Source: Marinicella sp.
GTDB taxonomy: Bacteria; Pseudomonadota; Gammaproteobacteria; Xanthomonadales; Marinicellaceae
NCBI GenBank assembly: GCA_965230295.1
Contig: OZ246001.1
Location: 3,072,001 to 3,136,000 of the forward strand
Direction of reading: 5' to 3'
Length of the DNA stretch: 64,000 nt
Made by a program: the position numbers and the translations under genes. The notes under the pieces were generated by a model. The model saw only the letters and a program-made list of their open reading frames with translations. It did no database searches and was not told the DNA's origin. Shown here in pieces: positions 5,289-12,726 of the stretch. Every line of letters starts with the position of its first letter. The stretch's first letter is position 1.

Positions 5289-5491
5289 GGAATGCTATAT
5301 TACAGCTTGACCTGTCGAGCCGGTTAGGCAGCGCAGGTGATGAAAGGTTGGCGGTTTCATCGAAGATGAAGAAGCCTACCTAGAATGCCGTAGCGCGTGC
5401 ATGCAATCATGGCGGTTTGAAGAAGTCAATAAGCCTTGATGAAATGAGTGATTAGCCGTGAGCTTTTGTTATAGCGCCCCAAGAACATTCC
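5289..5491 (+). repeat. Modular hairpin repeat element, copy 2
   Basis: GGAATG...CAGCTTGACCTGTCGAGCCGGTT at the left end and GCCCCAAGAACATTCC at the right end, with extra internal hairpins. Confidence 0.8.
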
Positions 5492-5597: not shown

Positions 5598-6296
5598 ATG
5601 GTTATGAACACATCACCCCGAAAATTAATCGCTTTATTCGCCTTGATTGCATGTGGTTCCCTACATGCCCAGCAAACGGAAAACATCATTGTTGTGCAAG
5701 GGGTCGGAGCTGTGACCATAACCAATGCTGAAGGAAGGATAAATGCTTCAGTGAGTACCCTAAATCAAGATGCTGAAGTGGCCTTGAGTAACAACAATGC
5801 CATCGTCAGTAATATCGTAAGCGAATTGAATGGTGTGGGCATATCACCGGATGATATCAGCACCAATCGATTTGATTTTTACCCCGAATACCGCTGGTCA
5901 GAAGGTCAGCAAGTATTTGAAGGCTATGCTGTGACCAATGGGATTTCTATCCTGGTCAAAGAAGTGGCCGCCATGGGGGCGATCTTGAATTTACTGGTTG
6001 ATGCCGGAGCCAGCCGTATCAATTCGGTTGGGTTTGGTTCGTCAAACTTAGCAGAGGTCAGGAAGCAGGCCTTAGAAAAAGCCACGGAAGATGCATTGAC
6101 CAAAGCCACTATTTTGGCCAATGCCAACGGTGTGAATTTAGGGAAAGTGATTCAGGTAAAACTGTCATCACAGAATTCAGTGCTCAATCAAACATCCAGC
6201 AACGGTGGTGTTTCAGCGGCCAGTCCTGTACCTATTTCGCCGGGTCAGAACACCATAACTGAAAAATTAACTGTGACTTATGAATTGATTGATTAG
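5598..6296 (+). CDS. SIMPL/DUF541 (BP26-like) periplasmic protein
   Basis: Signal peptide, VQGVGAV, GYAVTNGISI, A..KA.ILA...GV.LGKV, PISPG.....VTYEL. Confidence 0.85.
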   Translation: MVMNTSPRKLIALFALIACGSLHAQQTENIIVVQGVGAVTITNAEGRINASVSTLNQDAEVALSNNNAIVSNIVSELNGVGISPDDISTNRFDFYPEYRWSEGQQVFEGYAVTNGISILVKEVAAMGAILNLLVDAGASRINSVGFGSSNLAEVRKQALEKATEDALTKATILANANGVNLGKVIQVKLSSQNSVLNQTSSNGGVSAASPVPISPGQNTITEKLTVTYELID

Positions 6297-6350
6297 GAGA
6301 TAAATATATCAGTGGAGAAAACGTCAACCCTTTCTTTCTCTTTTTGTTTC

Positions 6351-6378
6351 AGGGCAATTTAAAATTGCCCTTTTTTTT
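6351..6378 (+). terminator. Rho-independent terminator
   Basis: AGGGCAATTT-A-AAATTGCCCT followed by a T-run. Confidence 0.8.
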
Positions 6379-6420
6379 GGTCAGCTAGTATGTGCATTTG
6401 TTTGGAAAACCTCTCCTGTT

Positions 6421-6666
6421 GTCATTTTTTGGCTTCTTTAAAGTACTTATTTTTGGTGACCAAAGAATCCAAGCAGTTGAGTTTTTCAATCTAAGATTTA
6501 TTCGTTTTAAGAAATTATGGATGACAACTGATTTTAAATGACAATACTGGTAAACCCAATTTAACGTTTGTTCGTATCAGATGAATAAGAAATTTTAGGC
6601 ATACATCATGGCCTAAGAATTTGAGACATCACGTACCTGGATCCTGCGGTCAAGCAGCAGGATGAC
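6421..6666 (+). mobile_element. Internally deleted non-autonomous copy of the REP-GIY-YIG-REP element
   Basis: Aligns with 9958-10130 (left REP, leader, first GIY-YIG codons) and then with about 10418-10460 (right REP). Confidence 0.8.
6581..6616 (+). pseudogene. 5' remnant of the GIY-YIG nuclease gene
   Basis: ATG AAT AAG AAA TTT TAG GCA TAC ATC ATG GCC TAA = MNKKF*AYIMA*, versus MKKEFYVYIMAS at 10096. Confidence 0.75.
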
Positions 6667-6704
6667 GAGTATGAGAATTCTTTATAAAATTTGAAATAGC
6701 TTCA

Positions 6705-8084
6705 TCAACATTCAATGATGTTAACTGCCAGTCCGCCACGTGACGTTTCTTTATAGTGTTCCTTCATGTCATCACCGGTTTCTTTCATGGTTTTGATGAC
6801 TTTATCTAATGATACAGTATGGCTACCGTCATTGCGGTCTGCCATTCGTACCGCATTGATGGATTTGATGGAACCCATGGCGTTGCGCTCAATACAAGGA
6901 ATCTGCACCAAGCCACCGATGGGGTCACAAGTCAGTCCCAGGTTATGTTCCATGGCAATCTCGGCAGCATTTTCCACTTCGTCAGGGCTTAAATTCAAAG
7001 CGGCGGCCAAGCCAGCTGCAGCCATTGAAGAGGCCACGCCGACTTCACCCTGACAGCCCACTTCAGCTCCGGAAATAGATGCTTTGGTTTTATACAGAAT
7101 ACCGACGGCTGCTGCTGTGAGTAGAAAGTTTCTGATGCCCTGCAGGTCGCTGTCGGGGACAAACTCTTTGTAATAGTGTAAGACGGCCGGAATGATGCCT
7201 GCTGCGCCGTTAGTTGGGGCGGTTACCACGCGACCACCGGCGGCGTTTTCCTCACTGACAGCCAGTGCGTACATATTGACCCAGTCCAGAACAGTCAGTG
7301 GATCGGCCAGGTCTTTCTCAGATCGCTTGTCTAAATCACGAAATATTTTTGGTGCCCGACGTGCCACTTTCAAGCCACCTGGTAATACGCCATCTGCTTT
7401 GATGCCGCGTTTAACACAGGCCTCCATGGCTTCCCAGATGGTGTCTAGTTCTTGGTTGACTTGTTCAAGTGGTCGCCAGCTTTGTTCATTGGCATACATG
7501 ATTTCAGCAATGGTCATTTTGTGTTCATGACACAATTCAATCAACTCATCACCTGAGGTGAAGTGGTAGGGCAGTTTCGAATCATCCTCCATGATGTGCT
7601 GTTTGGCCAAATGGGTGTGTGACAGGATAAAGCCACCACCCACTGAGTAATAAGCTTTGCGCAACAGTTCATTGCCTTCATGGTCTTTTGCAGTGAATTG
7701 CATGCCGTTGGAGTGGAGTGGTAGCTTCTTGCGCTTGTGCCACACCAAATGTTTTTTTATCTTGAATTGTAAAGTCAATTCGTCATTGGCTTGGATCTGT
7801 TGGGTTTCTTCAACATCGTCCAACATTTTTTCAATCTTGTCCGGGTCAACCTGATCAGGTTCTTCCCCTAATAAACCCAAAATGATGGCTTTATCGGTGC
7901 CATGACCTCGACCTGTGTGACTCAGTGAACCATACAGTTCGGTGGTGATGCTGTGGGTGCGTTCTTGTAGTTGGTGAGACATGATTTGAGCAATGAACAT
8001 GTTGGCCGCTCTCATGGGGCCGACGGTGTGTGAACTGGAAGGACCGATACCAATTTTAAAGAGGTCAAATACACTGACTGCCAT
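6705..8084 (-). CDS. sdaA: L-serine ammonia-lyase (Fe-S dependent)
   Basis: [52 protein letters not shown]. Confidence 0.95.
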
Positions 8085-8098
8085 GATAAACTACGCGC

Positions 8099-8332
8099 AT
8101 GAAAAAACTGAAATTATACAGCAGAATTGAGTGCCCGTTGTGTGAGTATGCAGAAGAGTTATTGCTTGAGGGTGGTATAACTTACGAAACCGTAGACATC
8201 GATGATTCTGAACAATTAACCCGTCAATACCACGTCAAAATTCCTGTTTTGGCCAATGAGTCTGATGAGTTGAATTGGCCCTTTACCCTTGAACAAGCTC
8301 AAGTTTTGTTACAGGAGCTTGATAATGGCTAA
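8099..8332 (+). CDS. Glutaredoxin-like protein (DUF836)
   Basis: CPLC motif, IPVL, C-terminal WPF. Confidence 0.85.
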   Translation: MKKLKLYSRIECPLCEYAEELLLEGGITYETVDIDDSEQLTRQYHVKIPVLANESDELNWPFTLEQAQVLLQELDNG

Positions 8333-9689
8333 AGCCAAAACCCAATTTGTATGTAATTTGTGCGGCCATAGTACCTCGAAATGGTCGGGTCAATGTGTGG
8401 CTTGTAAAGAATGGAATTGTATCGATGAGATTAAAATCCAGCCCACCACCTCTGGCGCCAAGGTCAATCGATATGCCAATTACTCAGGTGACTCATCTAT
8501 TCAGAAGCTGGGAAAGATCAGTACCAAGCAACAGCAGCGCACCTCATCACACATCAAGGAATTGGATCGTGTTCTGGGCGGCGGTATTGTCCCTGGTTCG
8601 GTGATTTTACTGGGTGGTGATCCAGGCATTGGTAAATCAACTTTGATGCTGCAAGTGTCAGCACAAATTGCTGAAGTCATTACACCTTTGTATGTGACCG
8701 GTGAGGAATCATTGTCCCAAATTGCCATGCGGGCGTCACGCCTGGGCCTGCGAGCCGATGATTTAGACTGTATGGCAGAAACATCGGTGGAAGCCATCAT
8801 TGCCACTACTTTACAAAAAAAACCTGATTTGGTGGTGATTGATTCCATTCAGACATTATTCAGTGAACAACTCACTGCCATACCTGGCTCAGTCTCTCAG
8901 GTCAAAGAGGCCGCAGCCCAATTGGTCCGCATGGCCAAACAAAGCAAAATAACCGTCATTTTGGTGGGTCATGTCACCAAAGACGGTGCCATCGCTGGCC
9001 CCAGGATGTTGGAGCACATGGTGGATACCGTGTTGTATTTTGAGTCAGATGGCAACAGCCGATATCGGGTATTGCGTGCCTTGAAAAATCGTTTTGGTGC
9101 GGTGAATGAAATTGGGGTTTTTGCGATGACCGAAACCGGTGTAAAAGAAGTGGAGAACCCATCGGCGATTTTCTTGAGTGAGCGCCAAGCCGATAAAGCC
9201 GGTTCAGTGGTGATGTGTACCCGCGAAGGTACCAGGCCCTTGTTGGTAGAGATTCAGGCTTTAGTGGATCAAAGCCCTTTGGGTAACCCGCGTCGCTTAT
9301 CGGTGGGCCTGGAGCACAACCGCTTAGCCATGTTGTTGGCCGTGTTACACCGCATGTGTCACTTGGCCATCCATGACCATGATGTGTTTTTGAATGCAGT
9401 TGGCGGCATGAAAATCACCGAAACAGCGGCTGATTTGGCCATCATCATTGCCATCATTTCCAGTTTTAAAAACAGGTACTTGCCAGCAGGGACCATTGTT
9501 TTTGGTGAGGTGGGGCTGACTGGAGAGGTCAGACCTGTACACAATGGTGAAGACCGCCTCAAAGAAGCAGCCAACCACGGCTTCAAAACCGCCATCATCC
9601 CCAAAGGCAACGCGGGTAAATGGGTCAAAGATCTGAACATCAAAATCATCACCGTTGATCAGGTGAGTGAGGTGGTGGATTTGGTCTAG
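8325..9689 (+). CDS. radA: DNA repair protein RadA/Sms
   Basis: C4 zinc finger, GGDPGIGKST Walker A, KNRFG motif, Lon-like C-terminus. Start MAKAKT at 8325. Confidence 0.95.
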   Translation: MAKAKTQFVCNLCGHSTSKWSGQCVACKEWNCIDEIKIQPTTSGAKVNRYANYSGDSSIQKLGKISTKQQQRTSSHIKELDRVLGGGIVPGSVILLGGDPGIGKSTLMLQVSAQIAEVITPLYVTGEESLSQIAMRASRLGLRADDLDCMAETSVEAIIATTLQKKPDLVVIDSIQTLFSEQLTAIPGSVSQVKEAAAQLVRMAKQSKITVILVGHVTKDGAIAGPRMLEHMVDTVLYFESDGNSRYRVLRALKNRFGAVNEIGVFAMTETGVKEVENPSAIFLSERQADKAGSVVMCTREGTRPLLVEIQALVDQSPLGNPRRLSVGLEHNRLAMLLAVLHRMCHLAIHDHDVFLNAVGGMKITETAADLAIIIAIISSFKNRYLPAGTIVFGEVGLTGEVRPVHNGEDRLKEAANHGFKTAIIPKGNAGKWVKDLNIKIITVDQVSEVVDLV

Positions 9690-9692
9690 CCT

Positions 9693-9878
9693 GTCATCAT
9701 GAGCGCTGCACAGCGAAGTCGAATGATCTCCTGTATCCGAAATTGAGTTTAAAAACCATTACGTGAAATTCAGGAGATTGCCACGGTTTCTTCGAAACCT
9801 CGCAATGACAGTTTAAGAACGGTCATTGCGAGGGAGGAAAGACCGATGTTGTCATCATGAGCGCAGTCGAATGATCTC
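9693..9878. repeat. Cluster of GTCAT-initiated REP-like palindromes
   Basis: GTCATCATGAGCGC..GTCGAATGATCTC at 9693 and 9851; GAGATTGCCACG..CCTCGCAATGAC at 9774-9809; GTCATTGCGAGG at 9822. Confidence 0.8.
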
Positions 9879-9957
9879 TTGAAGCTGGGGTATATTTTCA
9901 ATTAAGCAATACGTGAAAATAAAATGATCTTACAAAACACACATTTTCTATCTAACC

Positions 9958-10460
9958 GTCATTCTTTGGCTTGACCAAAGAATCCAGGCAGTATGATTTA
10001 TCAGTCTAAAATTTATTTCTTTTAAGAAAATATGGGTGGCTCCAAATTACAAACGATATTACTTTTAAAGCCAATTTAAAGTTTGTTTGTATTAAATGAA
10101 GAAGGAGTTTTACGTGTACATCATGGCCTCAAAAAAGAACGGTACTTTATATATTGGAGTGACTTCTGATTTAATAAAAAGAGTTTGGCAACATAAAAGT
10201 AATGTTGTTGATGGCTTTACCAAGACACATGGCGTACACAAACTGGTTTACTTCGAGCAATTTGACGATGCTTTGAGTGCCGTTGCCAGGGAAAAACGCC
10301 TTAAAGTATGGAAGCGACATTGGAAGTTAGAATTGATTGAATCTAGCAATCCATTTTGGGAAGATTTGTATGCATCAATTGTATGAGGCTTCTTTAGTTA
10401 AGAGTTAATATAGGATCAGATATCACGCACCTGGATCCTGCGGTCAAGCCGAAGGATGAC
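9958..10460 (+). mobile_element. REP-flanked GIY-YIG nuclease unit
   Basis: Left GTCATTCTTTGGCTTGACCAAAGAATCCAGG (9958-9988) and inverted right CCTGGATCCTGCGGTCAAGCCGAAGGATGAC (10430-10460) bracket a single ORF. Confidence 0.75.
10096..10386 (+). CDS. Stand-alone GIY-YIG nuclease
   Basis: FYVYIMAS..NGTLYIGVTSDL.KRV.QH...A..REK.LK.W.R.WK..LIE..NP.W.DL. Confidence 0.95.
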   Translation: MKKEFYVYIMASKKNGTLYIGVTSDLIKRVWQHKSNVVDGFTKTHGVHKLVYFEQFDDALSAVAREKRLKVWKRHWKLELIESSNPFWEDLYASIV

Positions 10461-10477
10461 ATGTTATGTAATTTAAT

Positions 10478-10511
10478 GATTCTTTGGCTTGTCGTACTCG
10501 ATCAGAATGAC
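10478..10511 (-). repeat. Additional degenerate GTCAT REP
   Basis: Reverse strand reads GTCATTCTGATCGAGTACGACAAGCCAAAGAATC, sharing CCAAAGAATC with the left REP. Confidence 0.55.
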
Positions 10512-10518
10512 AGGGTTC

Positions 10519-12726
10519 TCACCTTTTCCAAGCATAGCTGAATTTCATGAACACGCTTTTGTCGGTTGTAACAAAGGATTCGATGTCATCAAATTCGGTG
10601 CCGGCGTCGGAATAACCGACAAACAGCAGCGTCCTGGGGTTGACCTTGTATGAGTAAATCAATTGGGTAGCGACGTTTTCGCTGTTTTTATCGAAATCAT
10701 CCGGTTCGTTATACAAACTCAGGTCTCGATTGACATCGGTCTGGATGATGGCCAGTCGTAAGCGCTGTCTGATGTTGAATTGATATGACAGCCGGATGTC
10801 CGTTTGATTGGCGGTAAAAATATTGCCTTCAGTTAAAGACAAATTGCGGTATCGGTGGTTGATGCGGGCATTGAAATGTTTTCCAATGTTGGCATTGACA
10901 TACATGCTGCCTCTTAAAGAGTCTGCCAAACGGTTGTTACTGAAATCAACGTCATGGCCTTGGTTGATAAAAATTCCCAGTGACAGACCGGAAATGGGTT
11001 TGATGTCAAAATCGAAAAACCGGAAATTCTCACGAAATAGATTGTCTTCCCAAAAGCGATCTCGCACGCCCAAGCCCACTCGGTAAAAGGACTGCAAGGG
11101 ACCATTAACGCCGAAACTGCCTTCAAACTCTTTTTCTAATACGGTGCCTTCCTGGTCGTGGGTGATGTCCCAGTCAGAATAAACGTCCATGCGGTTCCAC
11201 CAGTTGTCTTGATCACCAATCCAGGCATAACCACCGCCAATGACGGACTTTCTGGTACCGACTTGACTGATGAAGCCACTGTCTGCCCGAAAGCCATCGT
11301 CTTTGTTTTGGTGGAAGGCATTGAAGCGCCAATTACGACCATTGTGCTGATATCTGGCCAGGTAAGTGTTACCCGAAAATTTACCTTGTCGTTGGTCAAA
11401 TTCATCGACCACCTCATCCGGATATTCAGTCTCTGAATTGGCTATTTGAAAACGAATCAGGTCTTTAGGTGTGAGGCGAAAGTTGACATCACCTGAGACC
11501 ACGGTGTTGCTGTAGCCGCCGCCGTCCCGGCTGGTGATTGTGCCACCGAATGTGGAGGCATATTTACCGAAATCGCGTCGATACCGGCCTACTATATTAT
11601 TCGATTCATTTTCTATGGTGGTGAAATCAGAACTCAATGTACCTGGAATCAGTACATTGGTGATGGTGTCTTTGGCGTAGTAAAAGCCATAGGCATTGGC
11701 ATCATTTTTACCCACCAGTCGCACACCATAGTCCGGATCAGCAATGTTCCTGGTATAGACCAATCTCATGTTGGAATCAAAATAATCTGAGTTTTCTAAA
11801 AAGAAGGAGCGCCGTTCAGGAAAGAACAGGGCAAAGTTCTGATTCACATTCAGTTGAGCTGAATCCGCTTCTACTTGTGAAAAATCCGGGTTGATGGTGG
11901 CATTCAGAGTCAGGTTTGAATTGATGCCCCAGTTGACATCGACACCCGCTTCAAAATCGGTGTCGCTGGGACCGTAATCAGCGTCTTCGGGCTCTCTGCT
12001 TTTTGAAGCGAGGCCTGTGATGGTTGGGGTGATTTCCAAATCCATGCCTCGGTCGGCATTGGCAAACCCAACGACCTTTTCTGTTTGGCACAGAAAGCAG
12101 TCATTGTCTCTCAAGATTTTAACGTTGCGGTATTGGCGTCGGTCATCTCTCGGGTGGGTCCTTTGAACGAACAGCCCCCAGGTTTTTTCTCCAACTGAGT
12201 CGGGCATTTGTAATTCGTTGTAAGGAATCTCCATTTCTACCACATAACCAAATTCTGTGATGTTTCCAGCTGACTCCCAGATGGCATCCCATGAGTCGTC
12301 TTCATTGTTGCCACTTTGAATCAGGTCCATTTGAACCCCCAGTGGATTGGTGAAAAACTCTAATGCACGTCGTTCATCATTGTATGTGTCAAGTACAACA
12401 CCGACAAAATCATCACTGTAGGATGAATCTCTATCGCGCAGGAAAGCCCTGATTTTTTCGGGTTCCGGGTCTTCAGCCCTGAACCCTATCACCAAGGTGT
12501 TACCCGTATCAATTAAGAAGGCTTCGGTTTTAACTTGTGCGGGTATGTTTTCAGCCGGGCTGGTTTCCCACACCAGAGGGATGAGCAGTGCTTGTTCCCA
12601 AGCAGGTTCATCCATGTAACCGTCAATTTTGATGTTGGTGTTTTCCAGTAATGGAACGCGTTTGTTGTCGATTTCTTGTGCGTTGATTAAAAAACTGCAC
12701 AACAATAACCAAATGCTCTTTTTCAT
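10519..12726 (-). CDS. CBM9-like/DUF5916 outer-membrane protein
   Basis: KIDGYMDEPAW, WDAIWES, NPDFSQVEAD, LFFPERRSFF, aromatic C-terminus. Confidence 0.85.
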   Translation of the reverse strand: MKKSIWLLLCSFLINAQEIDNKRVPLLENTNIKIDGYMDEPAWEQALLIPLVWETSPAENIPAQVKTEAFLIDTGNTLVIGFRAEDPEPEKIRAFLRDRDSSYSDDFVGVVLDTYNDERRALEFFTNPLGVQMDLIQSGNNEDDSWDAIWESAGNITEFGYVVEMEIPYNELQMPDSVGEKTWGLFVQRTHPRDDRRQYRNVKILRDNDCFLCQTEKVVGFANADRGMDLEITPTITGLASKSREPEDADYGPSDTDFEAGVDVNWGINSNLTLNATINPDFSQVEADSAQLNVNQNFALFFPERRSFFLENSDYFDSNMRLVYTRNIADPDYGVRLVGKNDANAYGFYYAKDTITNVLIPGTLSSDFTTIENESNNIVGRYRRDFGKYASTFGGTITSRDGGGYSNTVVSGDVNFRLTPKDLIRFQIANSETEYPDEVVDEFDQRQGKFSGNTYLARYQHNGRNWRFNAFHQNKDDGFRADSGFISQVGTRKSVIGGGYAWIGDQDNWWNRMDVYSDWDITHDQEGTVLEKEFEGSFGVNGPLQSFYRVGLGVRDRFWEDNLFRENFRFFDFDIKPISGLSLGIFINQGHDVDFSNNRLADSLRGSMYVNANIGKHFNARINHRYRNLSLTEGNIFTANQTDIRLSYQFNIRQRLRLAIIQTDVNRDLSLYNEPDDFDKNSENVATQLIYSYKVNPRTLLFVGYSDAGTEFDDIESFVTTDKSVFMKFSYAWKR

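What the first reader, a model, noticed from the sequence alone, without database searches (positions are those of the whole stretch)
6421..10460. REP-GIY-YIG-REP unit with a non-autonomous deletion derivative
Seen: 9958-10460 is a lone GIY-YIG gene between inverted GTCAT...ATCCAGG palindromes. 6421-6666 is a diverged copy in the same orientation. It keeps the left REP (with a 22-nt loop insertion), the same 123-bp GACCAAAG-to-ATG spacing, 11 codons (MNKKF*AYIMA) and the right end (ATCACG.ACCTGGATCCTGCGGTCAAGC.G.AGGATGAC). Homology stops at the outer GTCAT/ATGAC ends, no target duplication is visible, and both copies lie between convergent genes. Established: HUH RAYT enzymes are linked to REP mobility. 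Inference: here a GIY-YIG nuclease defines a REP-bounded mobile unit, with both autonomous and non-autonomous forms.
Basis: partly seen in the sequence, partly recalled or inferred. Interest (0 to 1): 0.78.

Follow-up and report, generated by a model that had tools for sequence, protein, structure and literature searches.

The report
Ssn nuclease cassette with hairpin ends
A tiny DNA-cutting enzyme gene sits between two mirror-image DNA hairpins, with a broken copy nearby and gene-less hairpin pairs elsewhere in the genome; this enzyme-hairpin pairing was described in 2025, and the copies here suggest, without proving, that the unit moves.

Summary
Window 9958-10460 is a 96-aa GIY-YIG gene between two outward-facing 31-nt hairpins. 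Window 6421-6666 is an internally deleted, degenerate copy.

It is not a new kind of system. It belongs to the Ssn nuclease / SRM hairpin pairing of Chenal et al. 2025 (PMC11893778), who showed that four such nucleases nick single-stranded DNA a few bases 5' of a CGTCAT-hairpin-ATCYRG repeat. They noted that repeat-gene-repeat looks like an insertion sequence, but did not test mobility. Earlier agents of this scan reported Ssn-type units on other DNA, and their notes led me to the paper.

What this genome adds:
- I counted 74 hairpins of this frame, 40 of them in 20 outward-facing pairs. Sixteen pairs are gene-less and 89-141 bp long. Only one pair faces inward.
- The stems covary.
- No pair has a target duplication.
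- Sister species have short spacers where this genome holds the deleted copy or two of the gene-less pairs.
- Sister species carry ssn cassettes where this genome has none.
- The closest proteins (57-69% identity) occur across many phyla, several with the same hairpin type.

So discrete gain and loss of the unit is supported. Nuclease-driven transposition is not shown. Verdict: new member of a known kind, moderate interest.

The parts
9957..9988 (+). Left SRM hairpin of the full unit: C-GTCAT, then a 9-bp stem (AT+TCTTTGG / CCAAAGA+AT) with loop CTTGA, ending ATCCAGG. GTCAT faces outward.
   Evidence: Sequence. Inverted repeat I1. DNA fold -7.5 kcal/mol, z -3.27. Covariation of this hairpin class.
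9989..10095 (+). 107-nt leader between the hairpin and the start codon, conserved in the short copy. It presumably holds the promoter and RBS (inferred).
   Evidence: Alignment. No sigma-70 consensus match.
10096..10386 (+). ssn gene: a 96-aa single-domain GIY-YIG nuclease of the Ssn type.
   Evidence: Y8, Y19, R29, H33, E66 and N85 are kept in at least 95% of 106 aligned homologs. 51% identity (E 2e-24) to the NTS-flanked frame of N. gonorrhoeae.
10430..10461 (-). Right SRM hairpin of the full unit, in inverted orientation with ATGAC outward. It has one stem mismatch.
   Evidence: DNA fold -6.3 kcal/mol, z -1.54.
6421..6472 (+). Left hairpin of the deleted copy, carrying the 22-nt loop module.
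   Evidence: The module recurs 12 times in the genome. The fold is no better than shuffles (z 0.07).
6473..6613 (+). Leader homolog plus an 11-codon ssn remnant (ATG at 6581, in-frame TAG at codon 6). The rest of the gene is deleted.
6636..6667 (-). Right SRM hairpin of the deleted copy. It is the only hairpin in the window that matches the published SRM search pattern literally.
   Evidence: DNA fold z -1.46.
9692..9881 (.). Other GTCAT-type palindromes between radA and the unit: 9692-9733, 9798-9833 and 9850-9881. They belong to other hairpin families and make this spacer a mixed hairpin cluster.
   Evidence: D5, D12, I5.

Best explanation
Window 9958-10460 is an Ssn-family cassette. It holds a 96-aa single-domain GIY-YIG nuclease gene bracketed by two copies of its cognate hairpin repeat (SRM: CGTCAT, 9-bp stem, CTTGA loop, ATCCAGG) in inverted orientation, with CGTCAT outward. 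Window 6421-6666 is an internally deleted, decaying copy of the same cassette family.

Mechanism. In single-stranded DNA each hairpin folds. The nuclease binds it and nicks a few nt 5' of CGTCAT. This was shown for four homologs by Chenal et al. and is inferred here. Because the ends are inverted, the predicted nick sites lie just outside the unit, one on each strand: near 9953-9956 on the top strand and 10462-10465 on the bottom strand (inferred).

The same hairpin frame forms 16 gene-less outward-facing pairs of 89-141 bp and about 34 other hairpins elsewhere in the genome. Cassettes and pairs are gained and lost as discrete modules between species and travel between phyla together with their hairpin type.

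I therefore read the cassette as a selfish, IS-like module and the gene-less pairs as its MITE-like derivatives. The copying step is unknown. It is probably carried out by host replication or repair acting on nicked ssDNA.
For: Family identity:
- Pfam GIY-YIG as a single domain of 96 aa.
- The catalytic Y-Y-E spacing (Y8, Y19, E66) equals that of Y6, Y17, E64, the residues mutated in N. meningitidis SsnA.
- tblastn E 2e-24 at 51% identity to the one matching frame in N. gonorrhoeae. That frame sits among 5 exact matches to the published NTS consensus within 1.47 kb.
- The hairpin frame CGTCAT...ATCCAG equals the NTS frame CGTCAT...ATCYRG.
- The published SRM pattern hits 64 times in the genome, against 5-10 hits in each of 5 first-order Markov simulations.

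Hairpin under structural constraint: in 28 hairpins (24 distinct), 95.4% of cells are paired, 5 of 9 pairs change on both sides, and 0 of 500 shuffles reach the covariation score.

Unit-like behaviour:
- 20 outward pairs against 1 inward and 4 same-orientation neighbours (P about 1e-8).
- Without the 7 hairpins I added by eye, the counts are 14 against 1 and 4 (P about 1e-5).
- Pair lengths cluster at 113-115 bp.
- Homology between the two window copies stops at the hairpin ends.

Gain and loss:
- The SIMPL-sdaA spacer after the terminator is 1, 12 and 20 nt in G031, G012 and G003, against 326 nt in this genome.
- G006 has an intact ssn gene at 75% identity at that site.
- The pair at 97271 is missing in 5 of 5 relatives.
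- The pair at 2381368 is missing in G003 and G007 and replaced by another hairpin type in G031. G004 and G012 were uninformative because of contig breaks.
- Five ssn cassettes of relatives lie where this genome has 41-274 nt. One sits between two abutting transporter genes.

Horizontal spread:
- 303 of 351 candidate stretches encode relatives. The best 80 are 57-69% identical and come from Oleiphilaceae, Kangiella, Omnitrophota, Bradyrhizobium, Saccharibacteria, Chloroflexota and others.
- The top hits carry the same 7-bp-stem, CTTGA-loop hairpin.
- 43 of 80 have outward hairpins on both sides, against 5 of 77 control positions.
Against: - No transposition event is shown. No comparator is closer than about 85% nucleotide identity, so no empty site is base-precise, and unalignable spacer surrounds each insertion.
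- GIY-YIG enzymes hydrolyse DNA and form no covalent intermediate, so the nuclease alone cannot paste DNA.
- In Neisseria the system has a host-level role in limiting transformation, which needs no mobility.
- The two hairpins of the full unit do not match the published SRM pattern literally.
- In the 80 foreign loci, inward-oriented hairpins are also common by my lenient detector (22 of 80 on both sides). Orientation preference there is only about two-fold.
- Gene-less pairs share only about 10-15 nt beyond the hairpin with the cassette, so their descent from a cassette by deletion is not shown.
- Single hairpins show no significant bias for the lagging-strand template (21 vs 13).
Confidence: 0.75

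Rival explanations
1. Domesticated host system without mobility. The nuclease and its hairpins serve the cell, for example by cutting incoming or exposed ssDNA at marked sites to modulate recombination, as in Neisseria. On this view the hairpins beside the gene are regulatory or incidental, and the short copy is just a pseudogene.
For: Chenal et al. showed that loss of ssnA raises transformation about 5-fold for NTS-bearing DNA. Hairpins lie between genes, often after convergent genes. The ssn gene is intact with all catalytic residues.
Against: This reading does not explain several findings:
- the outward-facing pair geometry (20 vs 1);
- independent occupation of the same spacer by different hairpin types in sister species;
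- ssn cassettes inserted between abutting operon genes;
- 57-69% identical proteins with the same hairpin type in unrelated phyla.
It is compatible with an element that was once mobile and was later domesticated.
Confidence: 0.3
2. Ordinary local duplication. On this view the 246-bp copy arose by segmental duplication of the radA-side unit 3.5 kb away and then decayed.
For: The two copies are 3.5 kb apart and in the same orientation.
Against: Homology ends at the hairpin ends on both sides, and no flank is shared. G006 carries an intact cassette at the sdaA site. The two copies differ by 21-23% and have different left-hairpin variants.
Confidence: 0.05
3. The hairpins are REPs moved by a RAYT or other transposase, or are mere terminators, and the GIY-YIG gene is a bystander.
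For: The genome has one Y1 (RAYT-like) gene.
Against: That gene is flanked by a different palindrome (GTCGACTGAAGTCGAC type), and no SRM hairpin lies within 15 kb of it. All three ssn genes of the genome, 29 loci in the genus and 43 of 80 foreign loci have GTCAT-type hairpins beside the gene. Binding and cleavage of such hairpins by Ssn are published.
Confidence: 0.03

Closest known systems
Ssn nucleases with NTS/SRM hairpin repeats (Chenal et al., Nat Commun 2025, PMC11893778; Results, Discussion and two Methods sections read)
   Same: It is a single-domain GIY-YIG protein of about 95 aa. The hairpin repeat has the oriented frame CGTCAT...ATC(C/T)(A/G)G on both sides of the gene. Repeats are enriched genome-wide. 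Each nuclease clade has its own hairpin variant.
   Different: This genome has only about 70 repeats, where the paper reports hundreds. Most neighbouring repeats form outward-facing pairs of about 114 bp. An internally deleted cassette copy is present. Stems vary widely around a constant frame. The paper does not describe pairs, deletion derivatives or filled and empty sites ('MITE' occurs 0 times in its text).
REP/BIME elements with RAYT (Y1, HUH) transposases, and REPIN doublets (Nunvar 2010 and Ton-Hoang 2012 as cited; REPIN work recalled, not read here)
   Same: Both have short extragenic hairpins, inverted doublets, no target duplication, and a single-copy enzyme gene flanked by its own repeats.
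   Different: The enzyme here is a GIY-YIG hydrolase, not an HUH tyrosine transposase. The gene lies inside one doublet rather than beside arrays. The genome's RAYT-like gene has other repeats.
IS200/IS605 single-strand 'peel and paste' elements (cited)
   Same: Both involve subterminal ssDNA hairpins recognised by a small enzyme, no terminal duplication, and a cut offset from the hairpin.
   Different: IS200/IS605 ends are not inverted copies and are cut on one strand by a covalent Y1 enzyme. Here the ends are inverted, so the predicted nicks fall on opposite strands, and no strand-transfer chemistry is known.
Bacterial MITEs (for example Correia elements; recalled, not read here)
   Same: Both are short gene-less units bounded by inverted ends that match the ends of a gene-carrying unit, and both are present or absent between relatives.
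   Different: No target-site duplication was found. The ends here are self-folding hairpins. The partner enzyme is not a DDE transposase.
GIY-YIG homing endonucleases (I-TevI type; recalled)
   Same: They share the GIY-YIG catalytic core and a selfish-gene logic.
   Different: This protein has no DNA-binding extension. The match to the group I intron endonuclease model is far below its cut-off (18.4 vs 56 bits). Its target is the element's own hairpin, not an empty allele.

Membership tests
Ssn nuclease family (Chenal et al. 2025) | Single-domain GIY-YIG protein of about 94 aa | tested here: met
   96 aa. PF01541 covers residues 5-77, and no other family matches.
Ssn nuclease family (Chenal et al. 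2025) | Catalytic residues equivalent to Y6, Y17 and E64 of N. meningitidis SsnA | tested here: met
   Y8, Y19 and E66 have the same 11- and 47-residue spacing and are kept in at least 95% of 106 homologs. The equivalence rests on spacing, not on a direct alignment to the N. meningitidis protein.
Ssn nuclease family (Chenal et al. 2025) | Homology to Neisseria SsnA (the paper used tblastn E < 1e-10) | tested here: met
   tblastn gives 51.1% identity over residues 7-96 (E 2e-24) to one place in two N. gonorrhoeae records. That frame lies among 5 exact NTS matches. The N. meningitidis protein itself was not on hand.
Ssn nuclease family (Chenal et al. 2025) | SRM hairpin repeats on both sides of the gene | tested here: inconclusive
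   Both flanks carry CGTCAT/TGTCAT, a 9-bp stem and ATCCAGG, which is the NTS frame. The literal published pattern matches neither hairpin of the full unit, only the right hairpin of the short copy. The left stem is A+T-rich and the right stem has a mismatch.
Ssn nuclease family (Chenal et al. 2025) | Genome-wide enrichment of the cognate repeat | tested here: met
   64 pattern hits against 5, 6, 7, 9 and 10 in five simulated genomes. My own frame-based census finds 74 hairpins.
Ssn nuclease family (Chenal et al. 2025) | CDD assignment cd10448 | not testable with these tools
   No CDD library is on hand.
Ssn nuclease family (Chenal et al. 2025) | Site-specific cleavage of ssDNA only, a few nt 5' of the hairpin | not testable with these tools
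   This needs the purified protein.
REP-RAYT / REPIN systems | HUH Y1 transposase as the partner enzyme | tested here: not met
   The enclosed gene is GIY-YIG. The only Y1 gene has other palindromes.
MITE / IS with terminal inverted repeats | Target-site duplication flanking the inverted ends | tested here: not met
   In 0 of 20 pairs is a junction direct repeat longer than 3 nt.
GIY-YIG homing endonucleases | Match to the intron-endonuclease model, with an added DNA-binding domain | tested here: not met
   TIGR01453 scores 18.4 bits against a cut-off of 56.05, and the protein is only 96 aa.

The most novel reading that the evidence does not exclude
Hairpin-ssn-hairpin cassettes are autonomous transposable elements of a mechanistically new class. 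A hydrolytic GIY-YIG ssDNA nickase marks both 5' boundaries through self-folding inverted ends, and host replication or repair does the copying without a target duplication. The roughly 114-bp hairpin pairs are their MITEs. Hairpin families left without a cognate gene (about 47 of 74 hairpins here) are either fossils or are cross-mobilised by the resident nuclease.
Probability: 0.3. Interest if true: 0.8.

Novelty: new member of a known kind. Interest (0 to 1): 0.4.

Why it matters
The 2025 paper left open how Ssn repeats spread and whether repeat-gene-repeat is a mobile element.

This genome is a compact test case. It has few repeats, one intact cassette, one deleted copy, a clean set of about 114-bp gene-less pairs, hairpin families without a resident nuclease, and sister species with filled and empty sites.

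With this material the question can be tested directly by cleavage assays and by insertion or excision sequencing. If the nuclease drives spread, this would be a transposition route that uses no transposase chemistry. If it does not, the case documents how a host ssDNA-restriction system and its target sites turn over.

Tried and rejected
- Rfam, permissive search of 6200-10700: only a chance-level Histone3 match (E 0.19).
- Promoter scan of 9600-10600: 0 sites, against 3.0 expected.
- NCBIfam: only a sub-threshold intron-endonuclease match.
- PDB by sequence: spurious multi-repeat WD40 matches, plus the UPF0213 protein 1zg2 at E 1.5e-4. No structure was predicted.
- RAYT as the mover: rejected.
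- Phage records: no match to the protein. Plasmid records: 33 matches, 32 typed non-mobilizable, several of them chromosome-sized.
- Sequencing runs: no RNA holder is listed. The one full holder may be the source sample and is kept as contigs.
- Search for same-species DNA to get a base-precise empty site: the closest metagenome contigs are 98% identical in the RadA C-terminus but only about 80% in DNA. They carry no ssn gene downstream of radA.
- Strand bias of unpaired hairpins relative to replication: 21 vs 13, not significant.
- Flank logo: C at -1 in 58 of 74, a pyrimidine at -2 in 60 of 74, nothing further.
- Three of my hairpin scans were too permissive and were not used for counts. A strict filter of the hits gave the count used: 75 hairpins. 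I dropped 8 of these by eye as likely chance hits and added 7 partners that had one stem mismatch. Both ways of counting pairs are given.
- Loci L155-L157, comparators for the pair at 1607992, were fetched but not aligned. Only spacer lengths are available.
- Literature: 6 searches found no paper other than PMC11893778 linking GIY-YIG or Ssn genes to bacterial REP-like repeats or showing their mobility. Its supplementary data were not opened.


Full report
**1. The observation**

The full unit has these parts:
- ORF 10096-10386 (+) encodes 96 aa. It is a single GIY-YIG domain: PF01541, E 2.4e-14, 53.8 bits against a cut-off of 22.6.
- It lies between arms 9958-9988 and 10430-10460, which are 31 nt long and 84% complementary.

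Window 6421-6666 is a co-oriented copy:
- 163 nt match at 77% and 43 nt at 91%.
- Against the whole 4.0-Mb genome these are the only other matches to the unit's interior, at E 1.9e-31 and 9.6e-10.
- The 123-nt spacing from GACCAAAG to ATG, the 11-codon remnant with a stop at codon 6, and the loss of about 285 bp of coding sequence can all be read.
- Homology ends at the hairpins.

Both copies lie between convergent genes: SIMPL/sdaA and radA/DUF5916.

**2. What it is**

A note from earlier agents of this scan pointed to Chenal et al. 2025 (PMC11893778). I read its Results, Discussion and two Methods sections. The paper reports the following:
- It defines Ssn, a family of roughly 94-aa single-domain GIY-YIG proteins.
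- Their genes are flanked by oriented hairpin repeats. In Neisseria this is the NTS, CGTCATTCCCGCGMAVGCGGGAATCYRG. More generally it is the SRM.
- Four purified homologs bind the hairpin only as ssDNA and cut a few nt upstream.
[quoted passage not shown] Mobility was not tested.
- Paired repeats, deletion derivatives and MITE-like forms are not mentioned.

The window's hairpins have the same frame: CGTCAT, a stem, ATCCAG(G). The protein evidence agrees:
- Y8, Y19 and E66 have the same spacing as the mutated Y6, Y17 and E64 of SsnA. Together with R29, H33 and N85 they are kept in at least 95% of 106 aligned homologs.
- The protein is 51% identical (E 2e-24) to the single matching frame of N. 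gonorrhoeae. That frame is surrounded by five exact NTS matches in 1.47 kb.
- The published SRM pattern occurs 64 times in this genome, against 5-10 in five simulated genomes.

One caveat: the two hairpins of the full unit fit the frame but not the literal pattern.

**3. Genome-wide anatomy**

A frame-based census gave 74 hairpins. The strict filter found 75. I dropped 8 by eye as likely chance hits and added 7 partners that have one stem mismatch.

The hairpins share CGTCAT and ATCCAG or ATCCAT but fall into stem types:
- variable 7-bp stems with a CTTGA loop (the type of this finding);
- CCTCGGG/CCCGGGG;
- CCCGGA/TCCGGG;
- ACCGGC-GAAG-GCCGGT;
- TACCCGG/CCGGGTA.

Pairing of neighbours is strongly oriented:
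- Forty hairpins form 20 outward-facing pairs. Sixteen are gene-less and 89-141 bp long, most often 113-115 bp. The other four measure 246, 296, 484 and 503 bp.
- Only one pair faces inward, and four neighbours share an orientation.
- Against a 1:1:2 expectation, P is about 1e-8. Without my seven additions the counts are 14 against 1 and 4, and P is about 1e-5.

In 28 equal-length hairpins the 9-bp stem is paired in 95.4% of cells, five of nine pairs show changes on both sides, and no shuffle reaches the covariation score. No pair has a flanking direct repeat longer than 3 nt.

The 22-nt loop segment of the short copy recurs in 12 hairpins with different stems, always between CTT and GA of the loop.

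The genome has only three ssn genes, each with its own hairpin family. Roughly 47 of the 74 hairpins therefore belong to types with no resident cognate gene. ssn genes bracketed by two of those types occur in sister species.

The one RAYT-like gene has unrelated palindromes.

**4. Gain and loss**

The nearest genomes are other species of the genus, at most about 85% identical in radA.

Sites filled in this genome and empty in relatives:
- SIMPL-sdaA site. In G031, G012 and G003 the terminator is followed by the sdaA stop codon after 1, 12 and 20 nt. This genome has 326 nt there, of which 246 are the deleted copy. G006 carries an intact ssn gene (75% identity) with the same right hairpin at that site.
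- Gene-less pair at 97271. The spacer is 27-76 nt in 5 of 5 relatives, against 280 nt here.
- Gene-less pair at 2381368. G003 and G007 have abutting convergent genes, G031 has a different hairpin pair in the same spacer, and G004 and G012 were uninformative.

Sites filled in relatives and empty here:
- The flanks of five ssn cassettes in relatives map 41-274 nt apart in this genome.
- In one of them the cassette sits between two transporter genes that abut here.

Across the genus, 20 of 24 genomes have one to five ssn genes, at different loci. Many are compact units with extended inverted ends.

Beyond the genus:
- 303 of 351 candidate stretches encode relatives. The best 80 are 57-69% identical and span many phyla.
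- The top hits carry the same hairpin type.
- Outward hairpins on both sides occur at 43 of 80 genes, against 5 of 77 control positions. By the same lenient detector, inward ones occur at 22 of 80.

**5. How it most likely works**

Shown elsewhere and inferred here: the hairpin folds in ssDNA, and Ssn binds it and nicks a few nt 5' of CGTCAT.

Shown here: the inverted geometry puts both predicted nick sites just outside the unit, on opposite strands, and units and pairs turn over as discrete modules without target duplications.

Inferred: the cassette is an IS-like selfish module and the pairs are its non-autonomous derivatives. Copying would depend on host replication or repair of nicked ssDNA, or on recombination between hairpins.

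The 246-bp copy is best read as a decaying relic. It is a single copy with an in-frame stop, and its left hairpin folds no better than shuffles, whereas the left hairpin of the intact unit has z -3.27.

A host-level role, as in Neisseria, is not excluded and may coexist with mobility.

**6. Limits**

- There is no base-precise empty site and no same-species comparator.
- There are no expression data.
- No biochemistry was possible.
- Gene-less pairs share only about 10-15 nt beyond the hairpin with the cassette.
- REPIN, Correia and I-TevI comparisons are recalled, not read here.

**7. Verdict**

The system is a new member of the published Ssn/SRM kind. It offers useful in-silico material for the open question of whether these units are mobile.

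Noticed in passing
window 5400-5480: An ~80-nt repeat has at least 10 further copies in this genome at 86-96% identity, and ~64-nt matches in three sister genomes. It is unrelated to the hairpin family.
   Followed up: no
window 9692-9733, 9798-9833, 9850-9881: Other GTCAT-type palindromes (TGTCATCATGAGCGC...CGAATGATC twice, and CCTCGCAATGAC/GTCATTGCGAGG) fill the spacer between radA and the ssn unit. The spacer is therefore a mixed hairpin cluster. In relatives the radA-downstream region is also highly variable and often starts with such a hairpin.
   Followed up: partly
G000:C1:3332890-3333373 and 3550511-3550806 (outside the window): Two outward-facing pairs of CCTCGGG/CCCGGGG hairpins enclose 484 and 296 bp that hold no ssn homolog. 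They may be cargo or decayed units.
   Followed up: partly
12 places in G000, including window 6436-6461: A conserved 22-nt module (CCTTAARGGRCCTACTTTTGGT) sits in the loop of SRM-type hairpins with different stems. It is also seen in hairpins of sister genomes. Its role is unknown.
   Followed up: partly
G000 genome-wide: About 47 of the 74 hairpins belong to stem types with no cognate ssn gene in this genome. ssn genes bracketed by the ACCGGC...GCCGGT and CCTCGGG...CCCGGGG types exist in sister species.
   Followed up: partly
G000:C1:1669462-1669713: A RAYT-like Y1 transposase gene is flanked by its own GTCGACTGAAGTCGAC-type palindromes. This is a second, separate repeat-enzyme pair in the genome.
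   Followed up: partly
L011 / L029 (G018:C11, downstream of radA): A sister species carries a different ssn gene (58% identity) downstream of radA. It is flanked by tandem hairpin pairs of another type, in a BIME-like array.
   Followed up: no
G000:C1:840634-840858: A further small GIY-YIG ORF (117-aa frame) follows a membrane-protein gene and has no hairpin repeats in its flanks. It is probably a different GIY-YIG subfamily.
   Followed up: no
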